Origin: Rhizophagus irregularis
Taxonomy: Eukaryota
Assembly: GCF_026210795.1 (NCBI RefSeq)
Contig: NC_089433.1
Span: 868,001 to 932,000, forward strand
Reading direction: 5' to 3'
DNA length: 64,000 nt
The notes under the pieces: model-generated
What the model was told of the DNA's origin: nothing
Databases searched by the model: none
The model's input: only the letters and a program-made list of their open reading frames with translations
Part shown: positions 25,666 through 45,969 of the stretch, in pieces
Numbering within the stretch: the stretch's first letter is position 1
Layout of the letters: each line of letters begins with the position of its first letter
Made by a program: the position numbers and the translations under genes

Positions 25666-26800
25666 GCACTCACTTTTCGATAATGACAAATTCTTATAGT
25701 TTTTTAAATTTTTGGTGAGCTAATTTTTCTTGTAAGTTTCTCAGATAAATAAAATTTTGAATTTAAACTACCACATAACAATAATTTTTAGTGAATTTTT
25801 TTTATATCATGTCATATGTTTTTATCGTAAAAATAACAATCTTGGTTATAATTTATACGAAGGCACAGTTCATGTCCTAACGTAAAAATCAAAAATGATA
25901 TTTTAGACTGAAATTATGCATAGTGCATAGTTTTTTGAGTTTATAACGAAATATTACCTTCTGTTACCGATCTTCTATTTGAAGATATATTATGTCATGA
26001 TTAGGCGTCTACTTATATGCAAAAAATATGGGTACAAGCATGTATTAATTATCTAGCATTTAACCTTTTTTAAAAATAATGTCAGACTGTGACATAAAAG
26101 TGGCAAGATTTATTGGGAAGTCAGTAATTACATAAATGAATTTCAAAAGGGAAAATATTTCTTTCTGTAACAAAATAATAACTGAATGATCGATAAGTCA
26201 AAATTTGACCAATATAAATAACATTCTGATCTAAATAATGTTGAATAACATCAATGTCAATGATAAATAATTATGTATTCACGAAGCATAATTTAGGATT
26301 CTGCAACCCGGCACATGCCCATGCCTAAAAAAAAATTTGGGGCACGGGAGTAGGTATTGCTATAGGCATCAATGCCTGGCAAATAAAAAGGCTTGAACAC
26401 TGTAATTGGGATTGCACTGCACTAGTACTTGACATGGTGCTAAGTAAATAATATATACATTTTTTGCTCAGCAAAGAAAAATACAATTTTTTAGAAAAAA
26501 GTACATACATTATATTGATAACATTAATAGCAAATATCATATATTGTTAGGGTATATTGTTGTCAAAGCTTCCATTAGAAAGTAAACAAAAAAATGACGG
26601 GCAAATGGGCACTATCTTGCATAAAGCTAAATGATATCTAAAATTGGCTCTTAATTAAAATCATAATAATATCATTTTTATAATTCTCATTACATTTTCT
26701 TTTACCATTTAATTACTTAATTTTAATTTAATTTTAATATTAGATAATAATATCGCGTTTTAAATATATTTCATATAGATAAAAATTAAATACCTCCGAA

Positions 26801-29800
26801 TAGTGTTTCGGGCGAAACCGAAACTAAATTTTTGGCGAAACTTCCGAAACTTGGCGAAACTAGTTTCGCCACCAGTGCAAAATTCCGAAACTGGCGGAAT
26901 TTCCGAAACCTAGCGAAACTTGCCCAAACTTCCGTAACTTCCGTAACTTGGCAAAACATGTTTTATTTATTTTTTTGTAATACATGACTGGTTTAACAAA
27001 AAAAATAACAAAATTTATTTATAAATTGCAACTTTACAATTTAGAATATTACAATATTACATAGTATTAATTATTTCATCAGCTTCGGCAGCTGGATCCC
27101 ATTCAATATCATCATTTTCATTCATAGGAACGTCTACTCTATTATCTTGAATCTCATCTTCTACACTATCTATACTATCTTCAATTATATCACCCAAAGT
27201 ATCAACAAATGCATCTAAGTCCAAAATATTATCAATATTTAATTCTTCCTCCTCACCAATTACTATTTCCTCCTCATTATTGTAATAATCAAGTAATTCA
27301 TCTTCCAATTCAAGAAGGTCTTGGTCGGGATTCAAATGTGCATCAATTAATATTTGATGAATTTCTTCAGTGGATTTTTCTATACCATAATAAGGCAATT
27401 CTTTTTTCACATTTGCATGATAATAGGCTGAAAGTTTATACATATTTTCAACTTTATTTAAGCCTAAACGGGTCCTTCTTTTGCCATATATCCAACCAAG
27501 ACTTGACCATACTCGCTCACATCCAGCTGCATGAGGTGTGACGGAAAAAAGTTTAAGTGCTAGTTGAACTAAGTAATCCTCATCTTTAGGAAAGCTATCC
27601 TCAATTGAAAACCACCAAGTATATGGAGTTTCAGTATCACCCATTTCAATATCAAAAGGTTTTTCTCGTATACGATATTGTTTCATTTGATGCATTAATT
27701 CTTTACGTTCAGCTTTGTTTTTTCCCATTTTCATAAAAATTTCATCTGCTATCATTAATAAATCTCTAAACAGACCTCGTGCCCAGCAAATTTCTAAAGT
27801 ATTTATTTGGTATGATAAATTTAATTTAGTAAATAATTTTATAATAATAACTATAATTTTGTCTTTGAAAAAAAAAAATGTGTTTGAATTTTCCATTTAG
27901 TGATTTATTAATTATTATTATAAGAATTACAGATAATATGATCCAAACTTACCAGTATAATACGGGTGTAAAAAAAAGCATAATAAATATATTGGATCAG
28001 CAAATTCAGCGTAACGACGGTTAAAAATTGAAATACACTGCTGACGAAAAACTCGATGATCATTATTAGGTAATTTTTTAATTGCAGCTCCAAGTTTTGC
28101 AAGTCCAAGAAAACAATCAGCAAGGGTGCAAGACTGAGATTCTAATGCTGCAATTGATTGTTTAATAGGACGTAAGGTAAATGCTAACGCACGTACATCA
28201 TCAAAAAATGCACGTGATCGTAAAACTGATAATACTGCTGTTGAAAGGTTTTTGGGTTTTTCACATTTTAACTAAATAAAAAGCAAAAAAATGAAATTAT
28301 TTGTTGAATTAGTAATTTAATGAATTCAGACAAATGGTTCAAAATCTTACATTTTCTAATGGTACTTTATGGCGCATAATTGAATCAACACAGTCATACA
28401 TAGTGTGCCATCTGGTATTTACCCATTTCTTCAATCCACCTCCACTAATACCACAAGCTTTAGCTTCTTCTTTTAATGCAGAACCTTTTTATATTAAATA
28501 AATTAATAAAACAATTGTAATATCAAAAAATAAAATAAAATAAAATTTAAATTAAATTACCTCCTTGATGGCTTTTTTTAAAGTATGTCACAATAGTATT
28601 ACATTTTGTTAAAATCCGATTTGCAAATGAAGTAGAGCAAATATCTTTTGAAATCAGATTAATAGCATGTGCCATGCAACGCACATTAAGAATATTTTTA
28701 TACTTTTCTGTGATAATTTGTCGTGCATTTCGAATATTTGCTCCTGAATCCGATACAATTGCTGAAAAATTTGCTGGACCAATTTCATCAATTATTTCAT
28801 CAATTGTTTTGGCTAAAAATTCGCCAGTATGGCTTTCACTTGATAGATCCTTTAAGCACCACAAATACTCCTTATGGTTGAGTGTGTGAATTAAAAAATC
28901 CCAAATTGACTCATTTGCTGAGTTTGTCCACCCATCACATGCTTGTTAGATTTAAAATAAAGATTAATTAAAATTAAATTAAAATCATTAATCATTAATA
29001 AATCAATAAACAACATACACAATGTTAAATTCACTGTATTTTTCAAATCTTTCATAACTTGTGTGTTCACAACTGCAGTTTAGTCTGCCAGAAAGTAATT
29101 CTTTTGATGGTGGCGTGTATCCTGGACGTAGAGTCTTCAAAAATTCAACAAAAAAAGGATTTTCAATTACATGCCATGAAATGCCACATACAACAAATGC
29201 TTTTACACAAGCACGATCAATTTCATGAATTCTATCCTCAGAGAGTTGACTACTTTCATGAAATTCTGACATTTTTGTTTGAATTGAACCATCATTAAGT
29301 TTTCGCTTTTTAGATGAAAGATTGGTCATATTTCCTTCAGCTTTTGCAGCAAGATGATTTAAGAAAAAGTTCCTTGTATCAGCCGGTACTTTAGAACAAT
29401 CATTAGCGAAGTGTGCTTCCAACTCTTGTGGTGAGCCCTTTTTCCAAAATAAATCACAGTATACACAGGTTGCTTCATAGTGACCTTCTGATTCTTTTCT
29501 ACCTTGTATAGCATTATCTCTCCATACCAAAGACTTAGGACGACCACCAGAATTTTTACTTTTCTTTTTTGTTGGAGTTATAGGAGTTGCATTTGGGGAA
29601 GGGTTAGAAAAGGTAAAAATTTGTGTAGACATAATTGAAGAAAATGATAATTGATAAGTGATTGTTTTCAAAGTTGGGCGATAAGAAAAAAGGGGGTTCA
29701 GGGGTAAATGGTTATTTATAAATAAACGCGTCAGTCACGTCATATAAATCTCCTTACATTTTTGCGAGGTAATACACGTGACATTTTTAGTTTCGCCAGG

Positions 29801-29925
29801 TTTCGGAAGTTTCGCCAGGTTTCGGAAATTTCGCCAAATTTCGGCAGTTTCGGAATGGCCCAAACTGAAACCTAAAATGGGCGAAATGTTTCACCAATCG
29901 CAAAACAGTTTCGCCCGAAACATTA
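26801..29925 (-). mobile_element. Full-length hAT DNA transposon
   Basis: TIR TAGTGTTTCGGGCGAAAC / GTTTCGCCCGAAACATTA, perfect 8-bp TSD CCTCCGAA, subterminal CGAAAC repeats, internal transposase. Confidence 0.95.
27057..29632 (-). pseudogene. hAT transposase (BED zinc finger, DUF659-type RNase H-like core, hATC dimerisation domain), intron-containing and frameshifted
   Basis: CVYC...H...C BED finger, CDGWT, VSDSGAN, RCMAHAINL, TRWHT, WW...LALKLFS...AGCERVWS. Frameshift near 29,080. Confidence 0.85.
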
Positions 29926-31247
29926 CCTCCGAATATAATGTTTGGGATTAACCGTAAACCAGGTAATAAACAATCATACAATATTATTTAAATCATTAAC
30001 TTGGGCTTACCGTGAGCACAATTGTAGTATACATGATTCACTTATAAACTGAAAATCTCTAATTGGATTATATGTTTATTATGTTATTATCTTTATTTAA
30101 AAAGTTACTAATAATATTAACGCTTATTTAGTTTAGCTAGCCTAAGATTTTTCCCATTTCATTGAACTGACGTTCTTTATCATATTCTAAGAGCTGACCA
30201 TAATGTTCAAATCACCGAATTCTTCTTCGATCCCAGAAAAACTTTTGAATCTTTTATCCAAAATGATTATCTTGAACCGAAGTACAAATTTGGAAGCGAG
30301 GGATTAAATGGATTCGCTCAAAATCCTGAACTTTCTTCTGATTTTACAAACAAGAGTATCCAGAATTTAATTACGCCTTTTGTACTGAACCATCATCATG
30401 TAACATTAATTTGAGCGTTATTTTAGAGAATCGATTAAAAAGAACATTTACAAGTAAATTAACTAATAATGGCTGTCAGTTTTTAGTATAGCACATAAAT
30501 TTTACAATGAAGCTATGAAAATTTTTTTGTTTTTGAGAAGTGGAGCCAAAATATATATTTTTTACTATTTGATAAATATTTGGTTTGACCTCTATTTGCA
30601 TCAACAAATTTGAATTTCATATCAATAACCTTTCTAATAATTATGCTATTTTCAAAATTATTTCACTCCTTTCTAAATAAATTGAAAAATGGCTTGTAAA
30701 TTTTTTTCTTTTTTTGTTATTGCTATCTTCTTAATTTACTGCTTCAAAAACAACCCAAAGTTTTCGCTATGATTTGAGATTTGAGCGTAAAATGGACATG
30801 AAAAACTCATTATTTAAAGACAAATTTCATTCCACCTAAATATTATGTAAGTTGTTATTTACACCTCTATTATAATAATAAGCTCATCAATAACCTAAAA
30901 ATTATTTGGTAAGCCAAAAATACATATTTTAAAGTTTTCTTGTTAAGAATTAAAATAATGTGAAAATGACCATCATTTCAATTTTGGTAGTATTTTGCTT
31001 TAGTATTGATATTTAAAAACAAAATATTTAAAATTTCGGCATTTTTTATAAGAGAGGGATAAATTAATACAAATAATGTGATTTATGCTACGCCACAATG
31101 GGAGATTGACAGCTGTCAGCTGACACACATTTATACATGCAGTATCTCATGCAGTGCTTGATCAACATGCATATTGTATCACAATATACTCTTATTAATA
31201 AAGGCGTAAAAAAAAAAAATTTACATTGTTAAGAGAATTATATAGTA

Positions 31248-34200
31248 ATGGCTCAAATCAAAGGTAAATATAACATACTAAGCAGACTGAAATATTAAAA
31301 TTTTTATTTAATAATAAATAAATTTATTTATTAATAATTTAAATATTATCTATTACCTTACGTAATATACATATGATATGATTTAAATGAATTACATTCT
31401 TGTTTAAAAATTATATTAAACAATTAGCTCGTAAGTTAATAAGTTATTTTATAGTTTAATAATATTGGAATTGCTTATTTTATTATATTCTATATAACTA
31501 AATAATTTATTTAACGATTAATAATATTATATATATAGTTAGTAAGTTATCAGTTATTTAAATCTTTAGTTCTTTACTCTATTTTGCATAATATTCAAAT
31601 AACTAAATTCTTTGTTTAAATAACTATTCAATAATCTATTATGATACAGATGGTAAGTTACAATTCTTAAAAGTTATATTTACTTGTTTAATATTTTATA
31701 TAACTAATTATATTCTTTATTTAGATTGTAAGTAATATATTTTATTTACAGTATATAATATTATATTATTTATATGATTATATCTAACTAATTATAATAA
31801 TTAATAATACTACAGGGTGTAAGTTATATGTCATCTACATTATTTCTACTATTTGTATAGTTTAAACTAACTAAATCTATTTACAAACAAATTATTTGGT
31901 TATTTCTTTTAGTTCGTAAGCTGAGTTATTATTTAATTCTATTGTTATGTATGTATATAATATTTACATATAAACTAACTAAATTTTTATTTAAAAATTA
32001 TTTAATGATATAGGGGGTAAGTTATTATTTAATTCTATTATGCTATCAATATTTCTATTGAGTATATAATTTAAATTTTAAACTAATTAAAATCTTTATT
32101 TTAATAATATAGCTTGTAAGTTATTTATTTACTTCGACTATTATTTATTTATATAATAATAATATATAATTTAAACTAAAAATTCTCTATTTAAAAAATT
32201 ATTTAATAATATAGCTTGTAAGTTATTTATTTAATTCTATTATTGCTTGCATATTTATATATTATATATAATTTAAACTAACTAAATTTCTTATTTAAAC
32301 TTAATAATATAGGGAGTAAGTTATTTATTTAGTTCTATTTTATTATATATTTATATGCATTTTAAATTTTTTCAAAAAATTATTTTGTAATTTCTTTTAG
32401 TTGGTAAGTCATAAGTTATTTATTTAATTTTATTATTACATCTTTATAATATTTATACATAATTCACATAATTTAACCTAACTAAATTCTTTATTTGGTA
32501 ATTTATTTTAGAACGTAAGTTATTATTTATTTAATTCTATTAGTATATATTTATATACTGTATTATTTATAATGTTTACGCATAATTTATAATTAAATTT
32601 TTTAATTAAAAAATTATATGATAATTTATTTTAGAACGTAAGTTATAGTTATTTATTTAATTTTATTTTTAAATATTTATAATATTTACATATAATTTAA
32701 ATTATGTAAATTCTTTATTTAAAAAATTAATTAATAACATAGGGGGTAAGTTATTTATTTAATTTTATTATTATATATTTGTATAATGTTTGCATACAGT
32801 TTAAGTTAACTAAATTCTTTATTTAAAAAATTATTTGGTAATTTCTTTTAGAACGTAAGTTATAAGTGATTTATTTAATTTATTATTATATATTTAGGAC
32901 ATTACAACTTATTTGTTAGTTTAATGTACTGATTCTTCTCTATTTTTTAAAAATCTAAAATATAATGAACATATAATAACATTTGTTTAAATACTTTCTT
33001 TAAATTATGATTATTTGAAATTTTCTGAAATTTTCTATATTCTCAAAATTTCTTAGATTTATTTAATCTATTTAATGAAAATTCCTTCTCCCACTTTATA
33101 GAAAATTCTGATGTTAAACAAACAATTAAATTGAAATGAACTTATATAATGTTTAAATGTAATTTAAATTAACTAAACTTTATTTAAATAATTTCATTTA
33201 GATCGTAAGTTATAAGTTATTATTCAATTGTATTATTACACATTTGCAGTACATTATATTTACATATAATTCAAACAAACTAAATTCCTTATTAAAAAAA
33301 ATTATTTAATAATATAGGAAGTAAGTTATTCATTTAATTCTACTATTATTATATACTTATGTAATATATTTATATATGTAATTTAAATTAACTAAATTCT
33401 TTATTTAAAAAAATTATTTAATATTATACTAGGGAGTAAGTTATTTATTTAATTTTATTATTATTACATAATTATATAATATTTACATATAATTTAATGA
33501 ATTAAATTCTTCATTCAAAAAAATTATTTAATAATAGAGAGTAAGTAATTTTATTATTACATATTTATAATATTTACATATAATTTAAACTAACTAAATT
33601 CTTTATTTAAAAATTATTTTGTAATATCTTTTAGTTGGTAAGTTATAAGTTTTTTGTTTAATTTTTTTTATTGTATTTGTATATAATGCTTATGTATAAT
33701 TTAATTCTTTATTCACAAATTATTTAATAATATAGCTCGTAAGTTATTTATTTAATTCTATGATTTATTATATTTTTATAATTTTTATATAATATTTGCA
33801 TATAATTTAAATTAATTAAGTTCTTTATTTAAAAATTATTTGGTAATTTTTTTTAGAACGTAAGTTATAACTTATTTATTAATTCTATTATTATAAATTT
33901 GTATAATGTAATCTAAATTAACTATTTAAAAATTATTTAATAATAGTTGGTAAGTTTTAGGTTATTTATTTAATTCTACGATACATATATCTATTTAAAC
34001 TAATTAAATTCATAATTTAAAATTTTTTTAATAATATAGAAAGTAAGTTACTATTTAATTTTATTATTATATATTTATACAATATTTTACATATAATTTA
34101 AACTAAATTCTTTATTTAAAATTTATTTATTAATTAATATAGGAGGTAAGTTATTTATTTAATTATATATAGGGATGGCAACGGTCAGTTATAGTCGGTC

Positions 34201-35427
34201 ATGGTCAGTTATAATCGATTATAGCAATTTAAACGGTCAGTTATGGTCGGTTAAAAATTGGTTAAACGGTCAGTTAAATGGTCGGTTATACCATTTTACT
34301 TAAATAATTGGTTAAATGGTCAGTTAAATGGTTAAAAATGGTCGGTCAGATGTTAAAACGGTTGGTTATGATCATAACTGTTGCCATCCCTAATTATATA
34401 TTATATAAAATTTATATATAATTTAAACTAATTAAATTCTATATGAAATTATTTAATAATATAGCAAGTAAGTTATTTATCTAATTCTCAATAGTTAATA
34501 TATTTACGTATATTTACATATAATCTAAACTAACTAAATTATTCAAAAATTATAGCTCGTAAGTTATTTATTTTCTATCATTATATATTTATATAATATT
34601 TGCATATAATTTAAACTAACTAAATTCTTTAATAAATTGTTAATATTATAGGAAGTAAGTTATTATTATTACATATTTATATAATATACATAATATTTAT
34701 GTATAATTTAAACTAATTAAATTCTTTAATCTTTATATAAAAATTATTCAATAATATAGCTTGTAAGTTAATTATTTAATTTTACTATTACATAATTATA
34801 TAATATTTATATATAATTTAAACTAATTAAATTTTTTATTTAAAAAAAAACTTAATAATAGATGGTAAGTTATTTATTCAATTCTAATATTATGTATTTA
34901 TATAATGATTGCATATAATTTATATTAATTTAATTCTTTATTTAATAAATTATTTAATAATATAGAAAGTAAGAATTTTAATATATATTTAGTATATAAT
35001 ATTTTTATATTTAAAAGTTAAACTAACTAAATATTTTATTTAAAAATTATTTAATCAAATAGATTGTAAGTTAGTAGTTATTTAATTTTATTACATATAA
35101 TTATATAATTTGTATATAATTAAACTAACTAAATTCTTAAAAAATTTAGATTGTAAATTATTATTTAATTTTGTTATCATAATACTTACATAAAATTTAA
35201 ACTAATTAAATCCTTTATTTAAAAAAATTATTTAATAATATAGGGGGTAAGTTATTTACTTAATTTTGTTATTGTATGTTTATATAATTTAAAATAACAA
35301 CTTTTTATTTTAAAACTATTTAATAATATAGGAGGTAGGTTATTTATTATATATTTATATAATATTTATATATGATTCATTTAATTAATTGAATTCTTTA
35401 TTAACAAAATTATTAATAATGTAGAGA
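31248..35427 (+). CDS. Candidate gene built from a 16-nt first exon plus 36 three-nucleotide micro-exons (3' end not found)
   Basis: Exon 1 ATGGCTCAAATCAAAG|GTAAAT, then 36 YAG-NNN-GT units about 100 bp apart with CTAAC/CTAAT branch-like motifs. Joined frame is MAQIKALNDWFRASWIEQREHRRKIAQLERATRTYENYWGE, with no stop. Confidence 0.7.
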
Positions 35428-35440
35428 GTGAGTTTTAATT
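31400..35440 (+). repeat. Degenerate ~100-bp tandem repeat whose unit is one intron plus one 3-nt exon
   Basis: Recurring consensus GTAAGTTATTTATTTAATTCTATTA...ATATAATTTAAACTAACTAAATTCTTTATTTAAAAAATTATTTAATAATATAG-NNN. Confidence 0.92.
34170..34392. mobile_element. hAT-type MITE inside an intron of the micro-exon array
   Basis: TIR TAGGGATGGCAAC / GTTGCCATCCCTA, perfect 8-bp TSD ATTATATA, internal GGTCRGTTA repeats. Confidence 0.9.
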
Positions 35441-35471
35441 TTATTGTAGCATATTATTTAATGTTTATATA

Positions 35472-35970
35472 TGTTGTGCCTCAGATCGATTCATGCCTCA
35501 GATTGAAGCTCACGCACCTCACATTGAGATTGTCACCTGACGCACCTCATTTGAATCATTCAATAAAGTCTGTTATAAGTAAACTTTTTTTCTCATTAAT
35601 TAAACCACTTTTTGTAACATAAACAAACTTGTGCGCCATAATGAGTTACATGTTTCCTGAAATCTTTATGTAAATCTGATTCATATTGAAGTTTATACTT
35701 GTATTTTATCTGAAAAATCATTAAATTTTAAGTCATTTTTCAAATGAAAAGATTTAATGAGCATGATTCTAATTAATCTGAAATTTTAGGATTGTATACT
35801 TAAAATAATGATAAATAAGTTTACTTAGTACTTAAAAATACATTAAAATTGGAAATTTTGATGTTTAATTATAGCTCATTTTTATTAGCAATTGAGGTGC
35901 GTCAGATGACAATCTCAAACTGAGGTGCGTGAGCTTCAATCTGAGGCAAGAATCGATCTGAGGCACAACA
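35472..35970. mobile_element. MITE with ~80-bp TIRs
   Basis: TGTTGTGCCTCAGATCGATTC...GAATCGATCTGAGGCACAACA, flanked by TATATA. Confidence 0.88.
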
Positions 35971-35977
35971 TATATAT

Positions 35978-36430
35978 CCCCTATTAAAGAAAAAATTTTC
36001 TAACGAAATGATCTATCAAAACAAAAATCTTTCCTATTAAAAATGGAATTTCCATCAAAAGAAAACAAATTCTCAACGAAATTATTTATCGAAAAAAACT
36101 CCCTATTAAAGAAAAATTCTTCAATGAAATTCTCTCAAAAAACCCCTTATTAAAAAGATGCTCCAATGAAATCTACCAAAAAATATAAATAAATTCTCAA
36201 AAGAAATTCTAAAACTCTAACGAGATTAACTATCAAAAAAAAGAAATTTCCCTATTATAAAAAAATTCTCCAATGAAATTTCTATCAAAAAACAAGCTCC
36301 GCTATTAAAAGAAATTCCCTATCAATAAAAAAATTCCCAACGAAATTTTTTTATCAAAAAATTTCCAAAGAAATTCTTATCAAAAAAAAAAGCTTTGCAT
36401 ATATTAAAAAAAAAAATATCTCTACCAAAA
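35978..36430. repeat. Degenerate minisatellite (CCCTATTAAA...CAAYGAAATT...TATCAAAA units)
   Basis: About 6-7 recurrences of cctattaaa spaced 45-105 bp apart. Confidence 0.55.
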
Positions 36431-36539
36431 ATTTTTTAAAACTACGCTAACCATGTGATTGACAAAATATGTTGCCGGGCAATGTCAGCTCGGTGCTGAT
36501 CTTTTTCAGCATCGGATAGCATTTTTTCAGACTCTGAGC

Positions 36540-37637
36540 TAGTGCCTCGACCCGTATCCGGATCAATCCGGATTGATCCGGATTTTTTTTTTTCGGATAT
36601 CCGGATTTTCACGGGTTTCATCCGGATTATAAACCGGATGAAAAATATCCGGTTTGACCCGGAATCCGGATGAAATTTTTATTATTTTTTTTTTTAATTA
36701 ATAATGATTTTGCTGATCCATAAAGATCTATATCTAAATTATATTATGGCTAATTATTTTTGCGCCTAATACCAATTTTTTTATTAAAATTTATTAAATT
36801 TATATTTGTTATATTAAACTTTTTAATACAGTAAGTTTAAGAAGATTTTTCAATTATAATTTATTTATTGAAGTTTGTATCAGATTTGTTTATTTAAATT
36901 TATACATTAACAAATAACAAATAATTTTAGATTTCACATTCAAACGTTCAAAAGAAAAAAAACTTTATATTATTTTTGTTACAACAAAATAATAATTATT
37001 GTTTTAAATGAAAAATTGTTCAATATTATAAATTTATATAATTATAACAACTTTTTTTAAAAATTAAAACTAGTGTTATATAATTTGATTCAAATGATTC
37101 TTTAATTTTTGAAAGAAGAAACAAATCCTTAAAAAATTGCCTTACTAACCCAACACATCTATTTATAGTAATCTTTAGCTGTATATAAAAATATCTTGTT
37201 TAAAATTTCATAATTAGTTAATTTACAAAGAAATGTTAAACAATATTCTGAGACAATGCTGAAATAATATGAAATTGTTTTAAAGAAAAGTATTTAATGA
37301 AATTGGAATTATGTAAATTTCGTGGTCTTGGATAATTTTGGCCAAATTTGTAATTCTGGCCGAAATTAACATCACGTGACACCGGGAAATAGTTTAGCCA
37401 CCGGGCAAAAAATTTTTTATCGGCTGGCATGAAAATTTAATGTTACACAATTTGTAATTCTGGCCGGCGTTATGAATTCTGGCCAGAATTATTGCCGATC
37501 ATTTGTAAATCCAATCCGGTTTCCGGTTTCTATCCGGATTATCTGATCCGGATTCAAAATCCGGGTCAATCCGGATATAATCCGGATTTTTTTTTTGTGT
37601 AATCCGGATGACGGTTTTCATCCGGGTCGAAGCACTA
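36540..37637 (-). mobile_element. 1.1-kb non-autonomous hAT element, copy B (inverted relative to 9,776-10,871)
   Basis: Near-identical reverse complement of copy A, with its own perfect 8-bp TSD CTCTGAGC. Confidence 0.92.
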
Positions 37638-37928
37638 CTCTGAGCTGATCTTTGTCAGACCCGGACACCAGAACCGTGGAATGCTTAAAATAGGTTTATT
37701 CAACAAAATATTAATGCTGTACGACTATCATTGGCTTAATATAGGTTTATTATACACTCATTTACACAACAAAATATCGGAGAAAAGGTTTTTCCTAGAA
37801 TGTTTAATTGTTCATGAAAGTGACGAAAAATTTTATTGATTATTCATTGAGAATATACAAAACGAATATTTCATTTGGTTTTTAGATTATAAGAAAATAA
37901 AATCTTTTAAAAAAATTATTCTTAAAAA

Positions 37929-39452
37929 ATGAAGAAAATTATTCTCGCTTTTGGCTCAACAGGCCTTGGCAAGACAACAATGGCTCATTTGCTTTGTGAA
38001 GCAAATGTTAAGGGTTCAAGTGGTATTGAATCTGCAACTAAAATAGCAGTATATTATGAAACAGATAAATATTTATATATTGATACTTGTGGATTTGGTG
38101 ATTCATCTGGTAAAACAGATGAAGAATTATTTCATGATATGATGTGTTTATTTCAAAGATATGGACAAAATAATATCTTTAATATCAATACAATATTATG
38201 GTTTTGTTCTGAGAGTGAAAGAGAGACAAGTCACTTACAACGTGAGGCTAATTTTATTCAACGTCTTGTCGAATATACTGATGAATGTAACCCAATAGAT
38301 TTATGGAAAAGTGTCTTGATTATAACAAAGGGCAATTTAAATTTGCGCAAATTAGTTGATGGACCAAAATCTGCTGCAAGGAATGCTTGTTGGGCTTTTT
38401 CTAATAAACAACATTACGAATTTAATGAAGATTCTTTCTTCGTTAAACACTTTCCATGTTGGATCTATGACACTGAAGGTATCACAGAAGAAAATGCACG
38501 TTGGGTTAAAATGGATTCTAAAACTCGTTTCGAATTTAATTGTTATCGTCAGGATGAAATAAAATCAAAAGTTCAACATTTGATTTCAAATTTTAGTCCA
38601 ATAACAATACGCTTTAAACAAGGAATATGTAAAAAATGCAATGTAATTGGGGATCCAAGGCTTTTCATCACACAATGTCATACCAAATCATTTTTTAAAC
38701 ATTCTATAAAAATCGAATATTTTCATCCTGAAGAAATTGTTCATTTTCATTCGGGAAGTAAGTTTCTTGTTCATGAACCTGATGAAAACTCAATAAAAAA
38801 GCTTTTTGAAAGTATATTCGATGGCGATCAAATTGAGATTCCTGTGTCTCAAGTTTCAAGTGAAATAGCAGAAAAAATTATTGAATCGTGCAAATTATTT
38901 AATAATCAAACAAATGCAGCACCAGAGTTACAACCAGAATTACAACCATCATTTATGTCACAAATAATTTCACACGCACCTCAAGCAGCATCAAATTTAT
39001 TACAAACAGTAGCGCCATTAGTGACGACATTGGCCGTTCCCAGAATGGCACCTAGTACTGTAACTTCTACTTATCTTCTTTCAGGTCCTTCAGTAGCCTT
39101 CCTTGTCATTTGCTCCGAAAGAAATAAGTGTTGTTATGAGGCAAAAAATATCTCATGTAAAAGGTGTAAAAAATTGATTGAAGAAATAAATGAAATAGGC
39201 TGTATTGAAAAATGTGATAATTGTAAAAAAGAATGGATAGAAACTGGTTGTGCAACTGGATATGGATGTTGTAAACAAGAAGAGGGAAAGCTCGGATGTC
39301 AAGCACATGAAAGATGCACAATATGTGATGAAGCTGCGATCGAATTAAATTCCCAAGGATGTACGGAATTTTGCGTGAAGTGCAAAGAAATGTGGAATAT
39401 TACACCAGGCTGTGATTCCGCTTCCAAACACGATGTGTTGATAATGGATTGA
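37929..39452 (+). CDS. P-loop GTPase (AIG1/GIMAP- or MMR_HSR1-like) with Cys-rich C-terminal region
   Basis: 507-aa single-exon ORF. G1 GSTGLGKT, G2 SAT, G3 DTCG; many CxxC motifs in the last ~120 aa. Confidence 0.85.
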   Translation: MKKIILAFGSTGLGKTTMAHLLCEANVKGSSGIESATKIAVYYETDKYLYIDTCGFGDSSGKTDEELFHDMMCLFQRYGQNNIFNINTILWFCSESERETSHLQREANFIQRLVEYTDECNPIDLWKSVLIITKGNLNLRKLVDGPKSAARNACWAFSNKQHYEFNEDSFFVKHFPCWIYDTEGITEENARWVKMDSKTRFEFNCYRQDEIKSKVQHLISNFSPITIRFKQGICKKCNVIGDPRLFITQCHTKSFFKHSIKIEYFHPEEIVHFHSGSKFLVHEPDENSIKKLFESIFDGDQIEIPVSQVSSEIAEKIIESCKLFNNQTNAAPELQPELQPSFMSQIISHAPQAASNLLQTVAPLVTTLAVPRMAPSTVTSTYLLSGPSVAFLVICSERNKCCYEAKNISCKRCKKLIEEINEIGCIEKCDNCKKEWIETGCATGYGCCKQEEGKLGCQAHERCTICDEAAIELNSQGCTEFCVKCKEMWNITPGCDSASKHDVLIMD

Positions 39453-40477
39453 ATTTCATCTATTTTTTATGTTTTTTGAACATACGTACAAATGTACGAT
39501 AATTTAAAAGTTTATTACAAGATATACTTGTTTATATTACTTTTATTATAATATTTTTATACATTTAAAAATAAAGTTATAATTAACTCTTTTGTTTGTA
39601 ATTCATTTTATCATTTATTATCATCACCCGTAGACGAAACTAATAATTTTTGCCAATTTAGCGTCATGTGAAATTTGATATAATAATTACAACATTTATA
39701 TCATAATAAAACGAATTTACAAGGCAACTTTCAAAATATAATTTGTTCTTTTCAATATTATTAACAGAAATCTAATCACGATCATTAATGTTGATTAAAT
39801 ACTAAATATATTTAAGGTAGACAAAATAAAGCTTTCCTTTAAGTAAGTCCACTTTTGATTCCAAGTGATATATGGAGAATACAAAGTTTTTAAGAGTCGA
39901 TCAACTATTTAAATTTATATTTAAAGTTTGTGAGGCGCATTTTTTATCTTTTCTTTATTTTCTATGTATGTTATTTGTATTCAAAATGTCTCGAGGCATT
40001 TAAGCTTTAGCAATTATAATCTTCACGCTAACTATCTTTATATTCATTGCGACAGGATTTCTTGCTGTTGTGCGATACTAATGTAGCGCCAATAATATAT
40101 TTTCTTTTATGAAATATGAGTAAAACTTATATGTAATTCTAATTATTAGACGAATAATTGTTTCTTTGAAATATCACTTCAAATATTAAAATATTTCTAT
40201 GAAATAATTCAATCTATGATCTATTGTATTAAAGACATATTATTTCTGTGTATAAACTAAATTTCTAACAATATTTGGCAATGAGGAACGTACAAAGACT
40301 TAGACCCGACGTGGAACATTGCTATATTTTAGAATTAAAGGAATTTGCATGAAAAATATTGTTATACTAGTTGTTGAGATAAACCATCTTTAAAAAATTG
40401 CACTGCGCGTTGAATTTTACTAATTTATATTAATGTAAATTTTCTTTCGCGAATTCTTCTTTCGCGAATTAATTATA

Positions 40478-40728
40478 ATGGCTGATGATAAACTTTTTTT
40501 ATCTAAATTACCCCAAATTTTACTTGAAGTTTTAAATGATGAAGAATATTATGATATAACTATTGAAGTTGGTAATGACCTTCATGTAAAAATATTTTAT
40601 AATTATTTTATATTATCGTTCTTCATATTTACAAAGAATTTTGTCGACTAACAAAAGAAAAAATGATGGAACTTTGACACATATTAAATTACCAAATATT
40701 TCACCTGAAGTTTTTCAATAATCTTAAG
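40478..40728 (+). pseudogene. BTB exon-1 fragment, a close copy of 24,057-24,316
   Basis: MADDKLFLSKLPQILLEVLNDEEYYDITIEVGND with a deletion removing RAHM (frameshift). Only a scrap of exon 2 remains near 41,440-41,490. Confidence 0.8.
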
Positions 40729-41878
40729 GTAATCTTTATAATCTATATAACTAAAAAAATTTGTCCTGACGTTTGGATTAGTCATTTAGTCTCCGTATAA
40801 AAATCCCATGCCATATAATTAAACCCCGTGACATACCTCCGCCTGAGCTACTTATGGTCAAAAACTATATTCCAATCAACTAATTTAATTCAGTTAATAA
40901 AATTTTAACTTAATCGTTTCGGTTTAGTTTTTTTTTTTTAACTGAAAAATTTTTTTCTCATTCTTTTCTCGTTTTAATAGGTTTAATTTTTTTTCCTAAA
41001 ACTGAAATTATTTTTTTAAAAAAAAAATCTATATAACATAGGAAAATTGACTAACGATGATAGAAAGATGATTAATATTTTTTCAATTAAATTGAACGCT
41101 GGATAAATAGTTTGGTTTTCAAATTCATAAAAATCAAAAAAAAAAATGATATTTTTACAATATTTTATAATTAATTAATTAAGAAATTGTTGATTTAATA
41201 ATAGATTATTATAACCTAAGTTGGTTATAAGTTTAAGATTGACGTAGTATAATTTGATAAGAAATTTTATAATTAATTAATAAAAATTTGTAGTATTTTC
41301 ATAATATTAAATTTTTTTCGAAAATACTTCTAAAAAATTAATCAATTTTTATTGATAATTATTTTTTCACAATTCATTAACTGTTAATTCCGAATTTCAT
41401 TCTACACTCAAACGCTAAATCATTAATATAAATAGCTTTAATTTCTAAACAGCCAGAAAAAATATTTAAATCAACAAATTTCACTTAAAATTATACTTTT
41501 TAAAGTGCATCAAATTAAATTTTTTTCACTAAGTTATTTGGATTGGTGATTTATTAAAAAAAGCATATCAAATCAAATTTAACAAAAAATAATGATCAAA
41601 TGGCATGAAAAAGATAAATATGCATAATATCTGAGAAAACTAGAGATATACTGTAATTTCGGTTCATAATGATAACAACAAAAGCACCATCATTTTACTA
41701 ATATGAATAATAATCATAAACAATTTAAATATTTAATAATTATTAAAAAGACAATTAACCAACACAAAATAAACTAAAACCATGATTATGATTTACAAAT
41801 GGATTTACTTAAAAGGAGATTTATGATCTTAAATCATAATGAATTGTAAACTCGCAACCGTCCAAACAAGAAAATACA

Positions 41879-42779
41879 CTACTTAAATATATATTTAACA
41901 TCAGTTACTCCAATATTGTATAATTTACAATCTTTAATATAAGCTATGCTATCAATATCAGCTAAAATACCGCCAGCATTTTTTATATTGGCAACAACAC
42001 ATTTGTTCATGAATAGTTTTGCTTTACGACCATCAATACAAATAGGCGGAACCGGTCCAAAACATTTGATGAACCAGCAGTTGTCTACAAAAACCTGAGA
42101 GGTTTCCATATATAGTGAGTATCCTCGAGTACATTCAACATAAATATTATATAGTACAAGATTACTATCACTACCTCGGAATACATTGATGTCAGAATTC
42201 TTTATTGTCACTTTACCAATTCCAATGATAACGATGTTTCTGTTATCCATTTCCATCAACACCATAGTTGTATATGTACCAGGCTCAAGTACCAATATTA
42301 CATCTTCAAACTGAAACAGATCAAGTAGTCCTTCGTCAAGTTGGTTATCCTCTCTTTTGATAATCTTCGGGGTTGAAAAAGGCATTTTTTTACATTGTTG
42401 GATAAAAAATTCGTCTTCATGAGAAATTTCGCCCAATGCCAGAGAAATTAAAATATTAGCATATGCACCAAATAGATTACTATTTGTAGCATGCATTTTT
42501 GCAAATTATACTGTAAGCTCCTTTATTGCACATTGCATCTAATCTAATTGATGTATTGAGGTAGCCCAAAACTTGAGGTTGGTTTTCTTTTCGTTCTTTA
42601 GATGAAAGAAGAGAGAATGAAGACTCTGGAAGGACAAAAGAAAGTAGCTTTAAATGCTTTAGGATGTTTTTTCTGGAACTTTTCCAGTTCCTGCATGTAA
42701 ATTTCGAAAGTATTTTCAATATTAACGGACTCCATATATCAAAAATATTTAAAAGAAGTGGGTGGGAATCCCTTAACAA
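41879..42779 (-). pseudogene. Fragment of a right-handed parallel beta-helix-containing protein, frameshifted
   Basis: Two overlapping ORFs (frame change near 42,490). LEPGTY...IVIIGIG.VTI followed by beta-helix-like repeats (VDNCWF, MNKCVV, IKDCKL). Confidence 0.55.
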
Positions 42780-43365
42780 TAAAAACTTGCAATTATCAAT
42801 TTAATTCAAGATCTTCAGCCATACATGTGAAGATCAACGTGTAAATCCAAATTTTTTTCTTTGAATTCGTAAACCTGCTTCAAACCCGACAGCTCGGACA
42901 CGTGATCGATGTGGCGGTTGATCTTTTCTTTATGTAAAATAATTATTAAAAATCTAAGTTAAATGTTACACAAGACAAGATAAGCGGATGCACATCACAG
43001 GTCACGTTAACCTATCCTGATCATGTGGAAAGAGTAGCCTTCACAATGTAAATACCTTTTTAAGATTTTCGCGACAGTATATAAATTTCGATTATATTAA
43101 CTCTTTTCATTTTTATTTTTGTTTTTATTTTTTTCTGTTTTTTTTCATTATGATGCTCGTAGTCTAAATTAAGCAAATAATATTAATAATTATGTCATAG
43201 TTGTTGAATTAGTAAAATTTGCTTAATTTAAACTATAATAAGACCTTAGCATACTCGGTATTTGATATATAAATACATTAAAAACGATAAAATTATGCTT
43301 TTCCAACTATATAAATAAATATCGATTTAGGTATATCAAAGATTTTCATATGGATCCTTGACATA

Positions 43366-43751
43366 TGGGGACGCCCGTAGCAAAAGGGGGGGATAGGCCA
43401 AAAAATTCAAATTTGAGATTTTATTATAATTATATGTCTATTAGTCTAATTATTAAGAAAATATGGTTTTTTATTAATAATATATTAGTAAAAAAGTTTA
43501 ATTTTGAAATTTTCTTATTATTTGCATTTTACTTTTATAGAATTAACAAGCAACATAAACTTATTAAAAGAAAATCAATACTCTTAGTAAATTGCCTGTA
43601 AAATTTAGTTTTAGATAAAAAAAAAAGGTCTGAAAGTCAATTTATTTCACAATTAAGTGATGATCTGCCAAATTTATCATGTGATTTAAATTGCGATTTT
43701 TTTTAAAATTACGGAATTATCCCATTCCCCCTTTTGCTACGGGCGTCCCCA
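43366..43751. mobile_element. MITE with TGGGG termini
   Basis: TIR TGGGGACGCCCGTAGCAAAAGGGG / CCCCTTTTGCTACGGGCGTCCCCA, TA flanks. Confidence 0.85.
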
Positions 43752-44087
43752 TATGGAGTTTGATAAATTTTTTATAATAAACACATGTTTCTTTTATGGT
43801 GTATAAATACGGGTTATATAATAATATTTATTATTTATAGTTAGATAATAGGTCTTTTAATACATGCACATTTACTTCCATTTTATAATTTTAAGTATTG
43901 TTATCAGTTATAAAAGGCGTAAAATTGAATTAATAATACAAAGTTAATTGCATCGATCCCTTTTTTAACAATGAATGACACAAAGCCATTGTTAAAAAGT
44001 CTTTATGTAGTTACTTTAAAATCAGTACAATGTAAGAGTTTTATCTGTATAAAAACATAAAAAAGGAAAAAAAAAGAAAAGTTTAGT

Positions 44088-45969
44088 ATGCAAAAAAATA
44101 TTAAAAATAATTTTAAAGATAATAATGATCATAAGATTCTTGAAAGAGAATCTCTAGAACATAATTTGTTGAATAAAATTCATTATAAAAAAGAATCTTC
44201 AGAAAACATTAAGCTTGATAATTATTACGAAAAAGATATAGCTAATAAAGAATTCGGGGTTTGTTTTAATTGTAATAAACCACAGACTGAAGAAAATTGG
44301 TGTTTAAATTGTAATTCTAAATTTTTTCAAAAAGAATTCAATAATTGGAGAAGTGAAAATATGCATATAGATAAATTTATACAAGAAGCTCAATTAAATG
44401 CAAGAAATAATAACGAAGTTATAGAATGGATTAATTATGATCATTTTATAAATATACAATATATTACTCGAGGAGGATTTAGTATTATTTATGGGGCTGA
44501 TTGGTTAGATGGAAGTATTGATTGTTGGAATTATGAAAAGGAAAATTGGAATAGAATTACTCAAAAAAATGGAATTCGTGTAATACTTAAGAGTTTAAAC
44601 GATTCTTCGAATATTCACGAAGATTTCCTAAATGAGCGAGGTAATTATTTTTTTAATTTTTAATTTTTTAAATGGCATTTTTTTTTTTATTAATATAAAT
44701 ATATATATACCATTTTTAGTTGAAAAATCATTTAAAATTTTTATATTCAGCTATAAATAATTATTCAAATTTTGTGAAAATTTATGGAATAACTAAAGAT
44801 CCAAATACATCAAATTATATAATTGTTTTACAAGAAATGCCAATGGGTAATTTAAGATCTATACTTATGATAAAAAAATGGAATCAAAATGATAAATATT
44901 ATAATATATACGAGATAGCAAGTTCACTTTCCGCTTTGCATAAATGTGATCTAGTTCACGGTGATTTACATAGTGGAAATATACTTTTTAAAGATATATT
45001 TACTGCTTATATAAGCGATTTTGGATTAAGTAAACCTGCGGATCAATCTATTGATTATAATGTGATTTCTGGAGTACTTCCATATATTGCTCCAGAAGTT
45101 TTACGTGGAAAACCGTATACAAAAGCTGCTGATATTTATAGTCTTGGTGTTATTATGTGGGAATTTACATCTGGTGTTCCTGCTTTTAATAATAGACAGG
45201 ATGATTTTAATCTTTCCTTAGATATTTGTAGAGGATTAAGACCAGAAATTATAGAAGGAACAGAACCTGATTATGAAGAATTAATGAAAAGATGTTGGAA
45301 TACTGATCCCAATAAAAGACCAACTGCAGATGAATTAGCAGAAATATTTGACGTGTTATCTACTAAATTTATAATGCTAATGAAGGATGAAGAAAGAAAG
45401 TCAGTACCAGCAGTACCAGCAATACCAGGTAAATAAGATTTTTTTTTCTTATATTAATTAAATTTAATCATTAATCGATTATTACTATTATAGAGAATAA
45501 ATCATATCATCCATTAACTTGCTATACAAGTAGAAAATTTGATTATTCTGTAAAGTTGAATGAAATTTTAAATCAAGAAGAATTAAGTTTTAAATTTACA
45601 ATAAATGAGAAAGATGATTATAAAGAAACAATATTAAGTGAAAGTTTAGGTAAGTATTACTTGTTTTTTTTTATTAATTTTAGGAGTTAGTATTAGTACT
45701 AGGTATAATGTATTATTTAATTAACTAAATAACTATGGTGATAAATAATCATTTGCCGCTATATAGTAAATGAATAGCAGAACCCTTTTATTAATACATT
45801 TTTATATTAATAACTTTTATAGAAAATTGTAAGATTTCTAGTACCATTTTAGGTAATTTACATTTTTTATTTAATGTTTATAATTTTTCATATTTTAAAT
45901 TATTATTTTTTTTTTAATTAATTATTTTTTTTTGTAGATATTAATCAAGAAAAAAGAGAAAAAAGTTAA
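44088..45969 (+). CDS. Tyrosine-kinase-like protein kinase (Glomeromycotina-expanded type), 5 exons; exon 1/2 junction ambiguous
   Basis: N-terminal CxxC...WCxxC, RGGFS, VILKSL, HGDLHSGN, SDFG, YIAPE, DIYSLG, C-terminal HPLTCYTSR. Exons at about 44088-44640, 44720 or 44751-45428, 45494-45649, 45823-45852, 45938-45969. Confidence 0.85.

What the first reader, a model, noticed from the sequence alone, without database searches (positions are those of the whole stretch)
31248..35427. A gene written one codon per exon: 36 consecutive 3-nt micro-exons
Seen: after ATGGCTCAAATCAAAG|GTAAAT (31,248-31,263), a 4-kb stretch that looks like AT-rich satellite has 36 sites of the form YAG-NNN-GT. Acceptors are 34 TAG and 2 CAG; donors are 33 GTAAG plus GTAAAT, GTAGGT and GTGAGT. 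Spacers are 72-120 nt, except two enlarged by insertions, and most carry a CTAAC/CTAAT branch-like motif. Triplets in order (start): ctc 31428, tta 31539, atg 31650, att 31725, ggt 31816, ttc 31913, ggg 32014, ctt 32113, ctt 32215, gga 32313, ttg 32401, aac 32512, aac 32635, ggg 32743, aac 32852, atc 33202, gaa 33318, gga 33433, aga 33538, ttg 33635, ctc 33736, aac 33857, ttg 33947, aaa 34040, gag 34143, caa 34465, ctc 34556, gaa 34652, ctt 34760, atg 34862, aaa 34966, att 35063, att 35150, ggg 35244, gag 35332, aga 35425. Spliced to exon 1 (all introns phase 1) they read MAQIKALNDWFRASWIEQREHRRKIAQLERATRTYENYWGE. Splice signals and the 3-nt length stay constant while the payload varies and the spacer interiors drift, which is not how neutral satellite decays. 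Established: isolated 3-nt exons exist, and schistosome micro-exon genes use runs of short symmetric exons. I know of no described gene made almost wholly of 3-nt exons. Inference: a spliced gene that ORF finders and short-read aligners would miss.
Basis: partly seen in the sequence, partly recalled or inferred. Interest (0 to 1): 0.97.

Follow-up and report, generated by a model that had tools for sequence, protein, structure and literature searches.

The report
Spliced array of three-base exons
In a mycorrhizal fungus (Rhizophagus), a short gene is laid out as 35 three-base exons in a row, public RNA contigs show the early ones joined exactly and in order, and the same layout sits in front of many related fungal kinase genes, where it likely encodes a fast-changing N-terminal segment that gene annotation has probably missed.

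Summary
Confirmed and spliced. All 36 YAG-NNN-GT sites are where stated. Three RNA-type contigs from two studies match the locus without mismatch. Together they show 11 of the first 15 introns removed and seven 3-nt exons kept in order, with no skip seen. A motif scan of metagenomes found about 60 related AT-rich arrays. In those, the arrays lie behind acidic 5' exons or in front of a Glomeromycotina kinase exon, in phase 1. After collapsing to 26 arrays, 1 of 233 junction codons is a stop against 11.5 expected, so they are coding. The window copy has no kinase behind it: a half intron and a MITE follow, and read-through gives a predicted 44-aa peptide. Best reading: a still-transcribed, truncated member of a kinase family with codon-sized exon arrays. 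Precedent exists: Tuber NACHT-ankyrin genes with tens of codon-sized exons (Iotti 2012, seen second-hand). This scan also noted such arrays on other DNA. My searches found none described in mycorrhizal Glomeromycotina or in kinases.

The parts
31166..31175 (+). Upstream motif CATGCATA[AT]T, possible promoter element
   Evidence: Only hit in the window; also upstream of exon 1 in L015, L037, L051, L063, and once inside an intron in L044. Function inferred only.
31228..31263 (+). Exon 1: 20-nt leader, ATG at 31248, ends in a phase-1 donor (GTAAAT)
   Evidence: X20 record 22 starts at 31228 behind a 21-nt non-genomic leader (recalled as a template-switch oligo) and is spliced at 31263.
31264..31427 (+). 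Intron 1 (164 nt)
   Evidence: Removed in X20 record 22.
31428..32854 (+). Micro-exons 1-15 (3 nt each) with introns 2-15
   Evidence: Introns 1, 2 (to an acceptor shifted by 4 nt), 4, 5, 8, 9, 10, 12, 13, 14, 15 seen removed. Exons 1, 4, 8, 9, 12, 13, 14 seen with both flanking introns out. Introns 3, 6, 7, 11 seen only retained.
32855..35424 (+). Introns 16-36 and micro-exons 16-35 (3 nt each, 33202 to 35334)
   Evidence: Sequence only: intact YAG and GT at every site, frame open in phase 1.
34170..34392 (.). MITE inside intron 26, terminal inverted repeats and 8-bp target duplication
   Evidence: Read from the sequence.
35425..35438 (+). Site 36: predicted terminal coding exon by read-through to TAA at 35436-35438
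   Evidence: First stop after 44 codons. Not seen in RNA.
35428..35473 (+). 5' half of a broken unit intron 37
   Evidence: Local score 49 against unit 5' halves, shuffled maximum 42 in 300 shuffles. No 3' half up to 44000: best score 48, true units score 53-77.
35466..35976 (.). MITE with 88-nt inverted arms at the point where the array breaks off
   Evidence: Arms 35466-35553 and 35889-35976, 94% complementary.

Best explanation
This is a transcribed, spliced gene whose coding part is cut into 35 three-base exons by ordinary short GT-AG introns, and it is likely a 3'-truncated member of a Glomeromycotina family in which such arrays encode a variable N-terminal segment in front of a protein kinase. 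How it is spliced (intermediates shown, mechanism inferred): each 72-120 nt intron has its own donor and acceptor, most have a branch-like motif, and each is likely recognised by intron definition. Introns come out one at a time and not strictly 5' to 3', so a 3-nt exon is absorbed into its neighbour once one flanking intron is gone. All introns are phase 1, so each codon is split over two exons. How it evolves (inferred): duplication, loss or conversion of the unit 'intron + 3 nt' adds or removes one codon without a frameshift. The payload then drifts, limited by selection against stop codons and against triplets that mimic splice sites. The result in relatives is a segment rich in Trp, Tyr, Asp and Arg that differs between paralogues, which would suit a binding or recognition role (inferred, untested). 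In this copy the kinase exons are missing behind a broken intron and a MITE, so the mature RNA would read through to a stop and give a predicted 44-aa peptide.
For: RNA: X20 record 22, X18 record 11 and X19 record 18 lie on the window with 0 other letters; joints fall at the predicted splice sites, with the payload letters between (tables 5, 5c, 7, 8). X19 shows four consecutive introns (12-15) removed. Frame: phase 1 has G+C at 8 of 36 third positions and no C (window genes 18%), mean log2 RSCU +0.28; phase 0 has 19 of 36 and -0.52; phase 2 has 5 stops. Family: 60 AT-rich, varied arrays among 117 arrays in 116 loci; phase-1 stops 1 of 400 against 21.6 expected, phase-2 stops 74. After collapsing 63 arrays to 26: 1 of 233 against 11.5, minimum 4 in 5000 within-array shuffles. 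Upstream, 15 of 18 loci with exon 1 have an open exon 2 ending in phase 1, and the array's second codon is Trp in 15 of 15. Downstream, 8 of 12 loci with a kinase motif join it cleanly in phase 1. Payload GTN 3 seen against 64 expected, NYA 57 against 108; the one mis-spliced exon in RNA is an NYA payload. Closest relatives are L061 (intron identity 0.80, shuffled 0.68) and L036 (0.75, 0.64); L036 repeats 4 of the window's first 6 payloads and L061 runs into a kinase. No kinase relic at 35428-44000.
Against: No fully spliced mRNA was seen; only three molecules support splicing, at depth 4.9-16, and all are partly spliced. Introns 3, 6, 7 and 11 were seen only retained. Intron 11 lacks a branch-like motif and is not removed in any of the three molecules, which would end the frame early if it is never removed. 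One of three molecules is mis-spliced out of frame. The runs are labelled RNA only by guess and no DNA run was laid as control. No single contig shows exon 1, array and kinase together; L036 and L061 are separate contigs. Of the 12 kinase junctions 2 are ambiguous and 2 broken. Most related loci come from three assemblies with similar accession prefixes, so they are not independent lineages. None of 390 fetched proteins shows a spliced array. Openness of the window's own frame is only P=0.04 by shuffling.
Confidence: 0.68

Rival explanations
1. The truncation was kept by selection: the 44-aa peptide is a functional stand-alone micro-protein, for example a decoy that competes with the N-terminal segments of related kinases.
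For: All 36 splice sites are intact and the frame is open; exon 1 is short, has its own ATG and a defined 5' end; 11 runs under three organism labels hold half or more of the stretch's words (none of these 11 was laid).
Against: A recent truncation would leave the same signals. The stop lies inside what is recognisably the start of an intron. No translation evidence.
Confidence: 0.2
2. The array works mainly as a splicing-level diversity generator, as reported for Tuber nank genes and schistosome MEGs: exons are skipped in many combinations to give many proteins from one gene.
For: All exons are symmetric, so skipping keeps the frame; one-exon skips give a stop in only 13 of 195 family junctions and 2 of 35 in the window. 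One alternative acceptor was seen. Precedent in Tuber.
Against: No skip in three molecules covering seven doubly spliced exons. Stops are purged at adjacent junctions (1 of 233) but not at skip junctions (13 of 195, about the shuffled rate), so selection acts on the full ordered product. Contigs drop rare variants, so low-level skipping is not excluded.
Confidence: 0.2
3. The gene is not truncated: site 36 splices over a long intron to an exon further downstream, or the kinase is still attached in other isolates.
For: Site 36 has a usable donor (GTGAGT); a same-strand kinase lies at 44061-45700.
Against: That kinase has its own ATG and a Cys-rich 5' exon, is only 47-53% like the L061 kinase, and other genes lie between. 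The ORF at 37929 has an in-frame stop just before its ATG.
Confidence: 0.12
4. A neutral AT-rich satellite whose splice-like motifs are inherited from the repeat unit.
For: The introns are related repeats (mean identity 0.70 against 0.61 shuffled). The generic motif does catch plain satellites: many of the 57 arrays set aside have a single payload.
Against: Exact splicing in RNA; invariant AG and GT beside free payload; stop avoidance across junctions in relatives.
Confidence: 0.02

Closest known systems
Tuber melanosporum nank (NACHT-ankyrin) genes with codon-sized micro-exons (Iotti et al. 2012, PMID 22289772; not held, seen only through passages of PMC4986451, PMC3689799, PMC13449251)
   Same: Tens of codon-sized exons in an expanded gene family of a mycorrhizal fungus, in proteins of signalling or recognition type.
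   Different: Different subphylum; host genes are mostly kinases, also a TPR and an SH3-ankyrin gene, with no NACHT seen. Extensive alternative splicing is the reported feature in Tuber; here no skip was seen in three molecules. In the window copy the array is 105 of 135 coding bases.
Schistosome micro-exon genes (MEGs; review PMC8293314, passages read)
   Same: Coding sequence made mainly of short symmetric exons; TE-rich surroundings; growth by exon duplication.
   Different: MEG exons are up to 36 nt; MEG proteins carry signal peptides. Here exons are all 3 nt and phase 1, the predicted peptide has no hydrophobic stretch, and relatives look intracellular.
Expanded Glomeromycotina protein kinase family (PF07714/PF00069; 'kinase-like domain-containing protein' of Rhizophagus and Funneliformis)
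   Same: Related arrays run in frame into the first exon of these kinases; the L061 kinase is 67-74% identical to Rhizophagus-clade proteins.
   Different: The window copy has no kinase domain. Annotated members show no array-type segment; 9 of 20 printed full-length models start at a Met at most 11 residues before the conserved W-I-P motif, which hints at missed 5' exons.
Isolated plant micro-exons of 1-15 nt (PMC8831610, passages read)
   Same: Very small internal exons that are really spliced and missed by annotation.
   Different: In the passages read these are single or paired exons, not long runs built from one repeated intron unit.

Membership tests
Tuber nank codon-sized micro-exon genes | Tens of codon-sized exons | tested here: met
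   35 three-base exons; seven seen spliced on both sides.
Tuber nank codon-sized micro-exon genes | NACHT plus ankyrin domains | tested here: not met
   No such domain in the window gene; flanks of related arrays give kinase, TPR, SH3 and ankyrin hits, no NACHT in the five flanking ORFs scanned.
Tuber nank codon-sized micro-exon genes | Extensive alternative splicing of the mini-exons | tested here: inconclusive
   No skip and one shifted acceptor in three contigs; contigs drop rare forms.
Schistosome MEGs | Coding sequence mainly of symmetric exons of 36 nt or less | tested here: met
   105 of 135 coding bases lie in 3-nt exons.
Schistosome MEGs | Signal peptide, secreted or surface protein | tested here: not met
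   Highest 9-residue hydropathy of the predicted peptide is -0.07.
Schistosome MEGs | Restricted to schistosomes | tested here: not met
   A neighbouring ORF clusters at 90% only with Rhizophagus proteins, 7 named of 8.
Glomeromycotina expanded kinases | Protein kinase domain in the same gene | tested here: not met
   No kinase match at 35428-44000; met only in relatives such as L061.
Glomeromycotina expanded kinases | Descent from the array-bearing members (pre-array donor, Asp-Trp start, intron unit) | tested here: met
   L036 and L061 share the intron unit above shuffled level, and L036 shares the first payloads and first donor.
Introner-type mobile introns (definition recalled, from no call) | Near-identical introns in unrelated genes | tested here: inconclusive
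   Stretches 88-98% alike between loci, including TPR (L022) and different kinase genes (L031); conversion or exon shuffling explains this too.
Introner-type mobile introns (definition recalled, from no call) | Insertion into pre-existing coding sequence, with transposon ends | not tested
   No intron-less homologue of an array segment was found to compare; ends were not examined.

The most novel reading that the evidence does not exclude
Arbuscular mycorrhizal fungi have a genome-wide system for writing hypervariable protein segments one codon at a time. A transferable 'intron + 3 nt' unit has colonised kinases, TPR and SH3-ankyrin genes and builds Trp/Tyr/Asp/Arg-rich recognition surfaces by unit gain, loss, conversion and skipping. 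This gives a largely clonal symbiont a hidden, unannotated receptor-kinase repertoire for nonself recognition, and the window gene is a released, kinase-less decoy of that repertoire.
Probability: 0.2. Interest if true: 0.92.

Novelty: new variant of a known kind. Interest (0 to 1): 0.76.

Why it matters
It is a natural, RNA-supported substrate for asking how the spliceosome handles long runs of exons far smaller than its footprint, and the intermediates already show piecemeal intron removal. It suggests that N-termini of part of a large kinase family of arbuscular mycorrhizal fungi are missing from annotation and are hypervariable, which bears on how these symbionts generate protein diversity. 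With the Tuber case it points to repeated, independent invention of codon-sized exon arrays in signalling genes of root symbionts. If this copy is only a transcribed relic, the family finding still stands.

Tried and rejected
No whole genome is held for this window, so paralogues in the same genome could not be counted. No RNA holder was on record among the listed runs; the RNA labels are guesses. Run X16 showed no GT..AG joint among those listed, and 11 joints and 105 loose ends were not shown. An exact scan of metagenome contigs for exon 1 followed by a non-G base found 0; the array motif found 0 in viral contigs. A profile of family exon-1 peptides found no longer protein at E<=1 (weak test). 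Searches with the post-array exon returned mostly multi-repeat kinases; none of 390 fetched proteins matched the array-start motifs or the predicted peptide (best E 0.11). Records behind five metagenome loci could not be extended. Phase 0 is also open but was rejected on codon use and on flanking exon phases in relatives. A link to the 37929 ORF or the 44-kb kinase was rejected. The kinase tree has weak deep forks and does not show whether array-bearing kinases form one clade. Intron similarity hardly falls with distance along the array and tracks payload only weakly (Mantel r 0.08, p 0.03), so no duplication order could be read. BLASTN hits of the AT-rich array to most loci are weak evidence, since satellites also hit. 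Literature searches found no description in Glomeromycotina; subscription papers, Iotti 2012 itself and bioRxiv supplements were not visible, and no supplements were read. Passages of PMC7539958 and bioRxiv 2022.10.19.511543 held nothing on micro-exons.

Full report
Observation. All 36 sites are present as described. The 3-nt spacing is specific: 34 hits for k=3 in the region and none for any other k from 0 to 15. AG and GT are invariant, donor positions +3 to +6 are 34-35 of 36, and the payload is free and G+C-rich (41% against 12% in introns). The introns are related repeats (mean identity 0.70 for units 6-36, shuffled 0.61).

Organism. The window holds BTB/BACK-TLDc and kinase genes. The ORF at 37929-39452 clusters at 90% identity only with Rhizophagus proteins, 7 named of 8 members.

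RNA evidence. Four runs were laid on 30600-32570 only. Three contigs match with no other letters. X20 record 22 (study P10) begins at 31228 behind a non-genomic leader that I recall as a template-switch oligo. It has exon 1 joined to micro-exon 1; intron 2 spliced to an acceptor 4 nt downstream, made from the end of exon 2 and the donor G; intron 3 kept; introns 4 and 5 out around exon 4; 6 and 7 kept; 8, 9 and 10 out around exons 8 and 9. X18 record 11 (study P9) repeats the removal of introns 8-10. X19 record 18 (P9) lacks intron 10, and its loose end reads exons 12, 13, 14 and 15 in order, then the start of intron 16 (numbering checked). In all, 11 of the first 15 introns are seen removed and seven 3-nt exons are seen with both flanks out. 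Against: all three molecules are partly spliced, depth is 4.9-16, introns 3, 6, 7 and 11 were seen only retained, no fully spliced mRNA appeared, the RNA labels are guesses and no DNA control was laid. The differing retention patterns between runs fit splicing intermediates better than a retrocopy (inference). X18 and X19 also hold many short contigs 90-95% like the introns (30 of 52 and 12 of 25 laid), some with other payloads, which suggests transcribed paralogues in the same organism.

Reading frame. Phase 1 has third-position G+C 8 of 36 with no C, close to window genes (18%); phase 0 has 19 of 36; phase 2 has five stops. Openness alone is weak (P=0.04). Site 36 reads through to TAA at 35436-35438, giving 44 codons. 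The 46 nt after it resemble the 5' half of a unit intron, and no 3' half exists up to 44000. A MITE with 88-nt arms sits at the break, and no kinase relic lies between the array and 44000.

Family. Of 117 arrays in the 116 loci read, 57 were set aside as G+C-richer or low-diversity, many plain satellites; 60 are AT-rich with varied payloads. Phase-1 junction codons hold 1 stop in 400 against 21.6 expected, phase 2 holds 74. With a slightly changed filter (63 arrays) collapsed by single linkage at 88% identity to 26, it is 1 of 233 against 11.5, never below 4 in 5000 within-array shuffles. One-exon skips give 13 stops in 195, so selection favours the full ordered product. The encoded segments are 10% Trp, 10% Tyr, 12% Asp and 7% Arg, against 1.5, 4.0, 5.8 and 3.5% in window genes; founder payloads may contribute. 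Upstream, 15 of 18 loci with a recognisable exon 1 have an open, mostly acidic exon 2 ending in phase 1, with Trp as second array codon in all 15. Downstream, of 12 loci with a kinase motif 8 join cleanly in phase 1, 2 are ambiguous and 2 broken. Arrays also follow a TPR exon (L022) and precede SH3-ankyrin (L065) and another kinase type (L031). Payloads that mimic splice sites are depleted: GTN 3 against 64, NGT 17 against 46, NYA 57 against 108; my pattern's choice of sites may add to this. Most loci come from three assemblies with similar prefixes, and their taxon is inferred only from kinase hits to Funneliformis and Rhizophagus proteins.

Closest relatives of the window copy. L061 and L036 have intron identity 0.80 and 0.75 to window introns (shuffled 0.68, 0.64); the others are 0.64-0.71. 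L036 has the same first donor and 4 of the first 6 payloads, the other two differing by one base. L061 runs into a kinase 67-74% identical to Rhizophagus-clade proteins. They are separate contigs of one assembly, 88% alike over 310 nt. Nine of 20 printed full-length kinase models start at a Met at most 11 residues before the conserved W-I-P motif, a hint of missed 5' exons. None of 390 fetched proteins carries an array-type segment.

Mechanism. Shown: exact removal of short introns around 3-nt exons, in patches, with exons kept in order. Inferred: intron definition with sequential removal; growth by duplication and conversion of the intron-plus-triplet unit; a variable binding segment on kinases. 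For this locus I favour a recently decapitated but still transcribed family member (0.68) over a selected micro-protein (0.2), a skipping-based generator (0.2; not exclusive), an intact longer gene (0.12) or a satellite (0.02).

Comparison with what is known. [quoted passage not shown] I got this lead from note e1-7448188. Schistosome MEGs have short symmetric exons and signal peptides (passages of PMC8293314). Plant 1-15 nt micro-exons appear single or paired in the passages read (PMC8831610). The window gene works like the Tuber arrays in layout but is not a member of that family or of MEGs. Eight searches (listings and abstract starts seen) found no report for Glomeromycotina or for kinases; subscription papers and bioRxiv supplements could hold one. 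The scan has noted similar arrays on other DNA (8 notes), none by sequence or place near this one.

Verdict. Real, spliced and part of an apparently undescribed gene family layout in arbuscular mycorrhizal fungi: a new variant of a known but very rare kind. Interest 0.76.

Noticed in passing
L043:53-1030 (- strand): A G+C-richer organism (44%) has an exon that looks like a signal peptide followed by at least 11 phase-0 three-base exons with varied, Gly-rich payload: a probable independent, secreted case.
   Followed up: partly
L078 and L035 (- strand): Arrays with 43-59% G+C and varied payloads (11 and 6 sites) in other organisms; could be further cases or satellites.
   Followed up: no
L061:about 1250 (- strand): A TAG-T-GTAAG site between the array and the kinase exon could be a 1-nt exon that restores the frame.
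   Followed up: partly
window 32855-33201: Intron 16 is enlarged to 347 nt by about 250 nt of unrelated sequence; no terminal repeats were looked for.
   Followed up: no
window 36540-37637: Non-coding element with inverted ends and an 8-bp target duplication, hAT-like (recalled class); similar sequence in L053 and L027.
   Followed up: partly
window 26800-29930: Transposase-like gene on the - strand with introns, between blocks of short inverted repeats; no Pfam hit at E 0.001 for two exons.
   Followed up: no
window 30688-30850: An ATG followed by a hydrophobic stretch, an apparent frameshift and a donor site: possibly a decayed secreted-protein gene upstream of the array.
   Followed up: no
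window 37929-39452: Intron-less 507-aa ORF with a P-loop start and a Cys-rich C-terminus; no Pfam hit here, cluster members named 'G domain-containing protein'.
   Followed up: partly
window 31900-33870: Payloads AAC, TTG, TTC and ATC mostly follow a T-rich acceptor type, the others an AATATAG type, suggesting two unit lineages inside the array.
   Followed up: partly
loci L002-L115: Intron units are 88-98% alike over 150-700 nt between different loci, including unrelated genes, pointing to conversion or transfer of the unit.
   Followed up: partly
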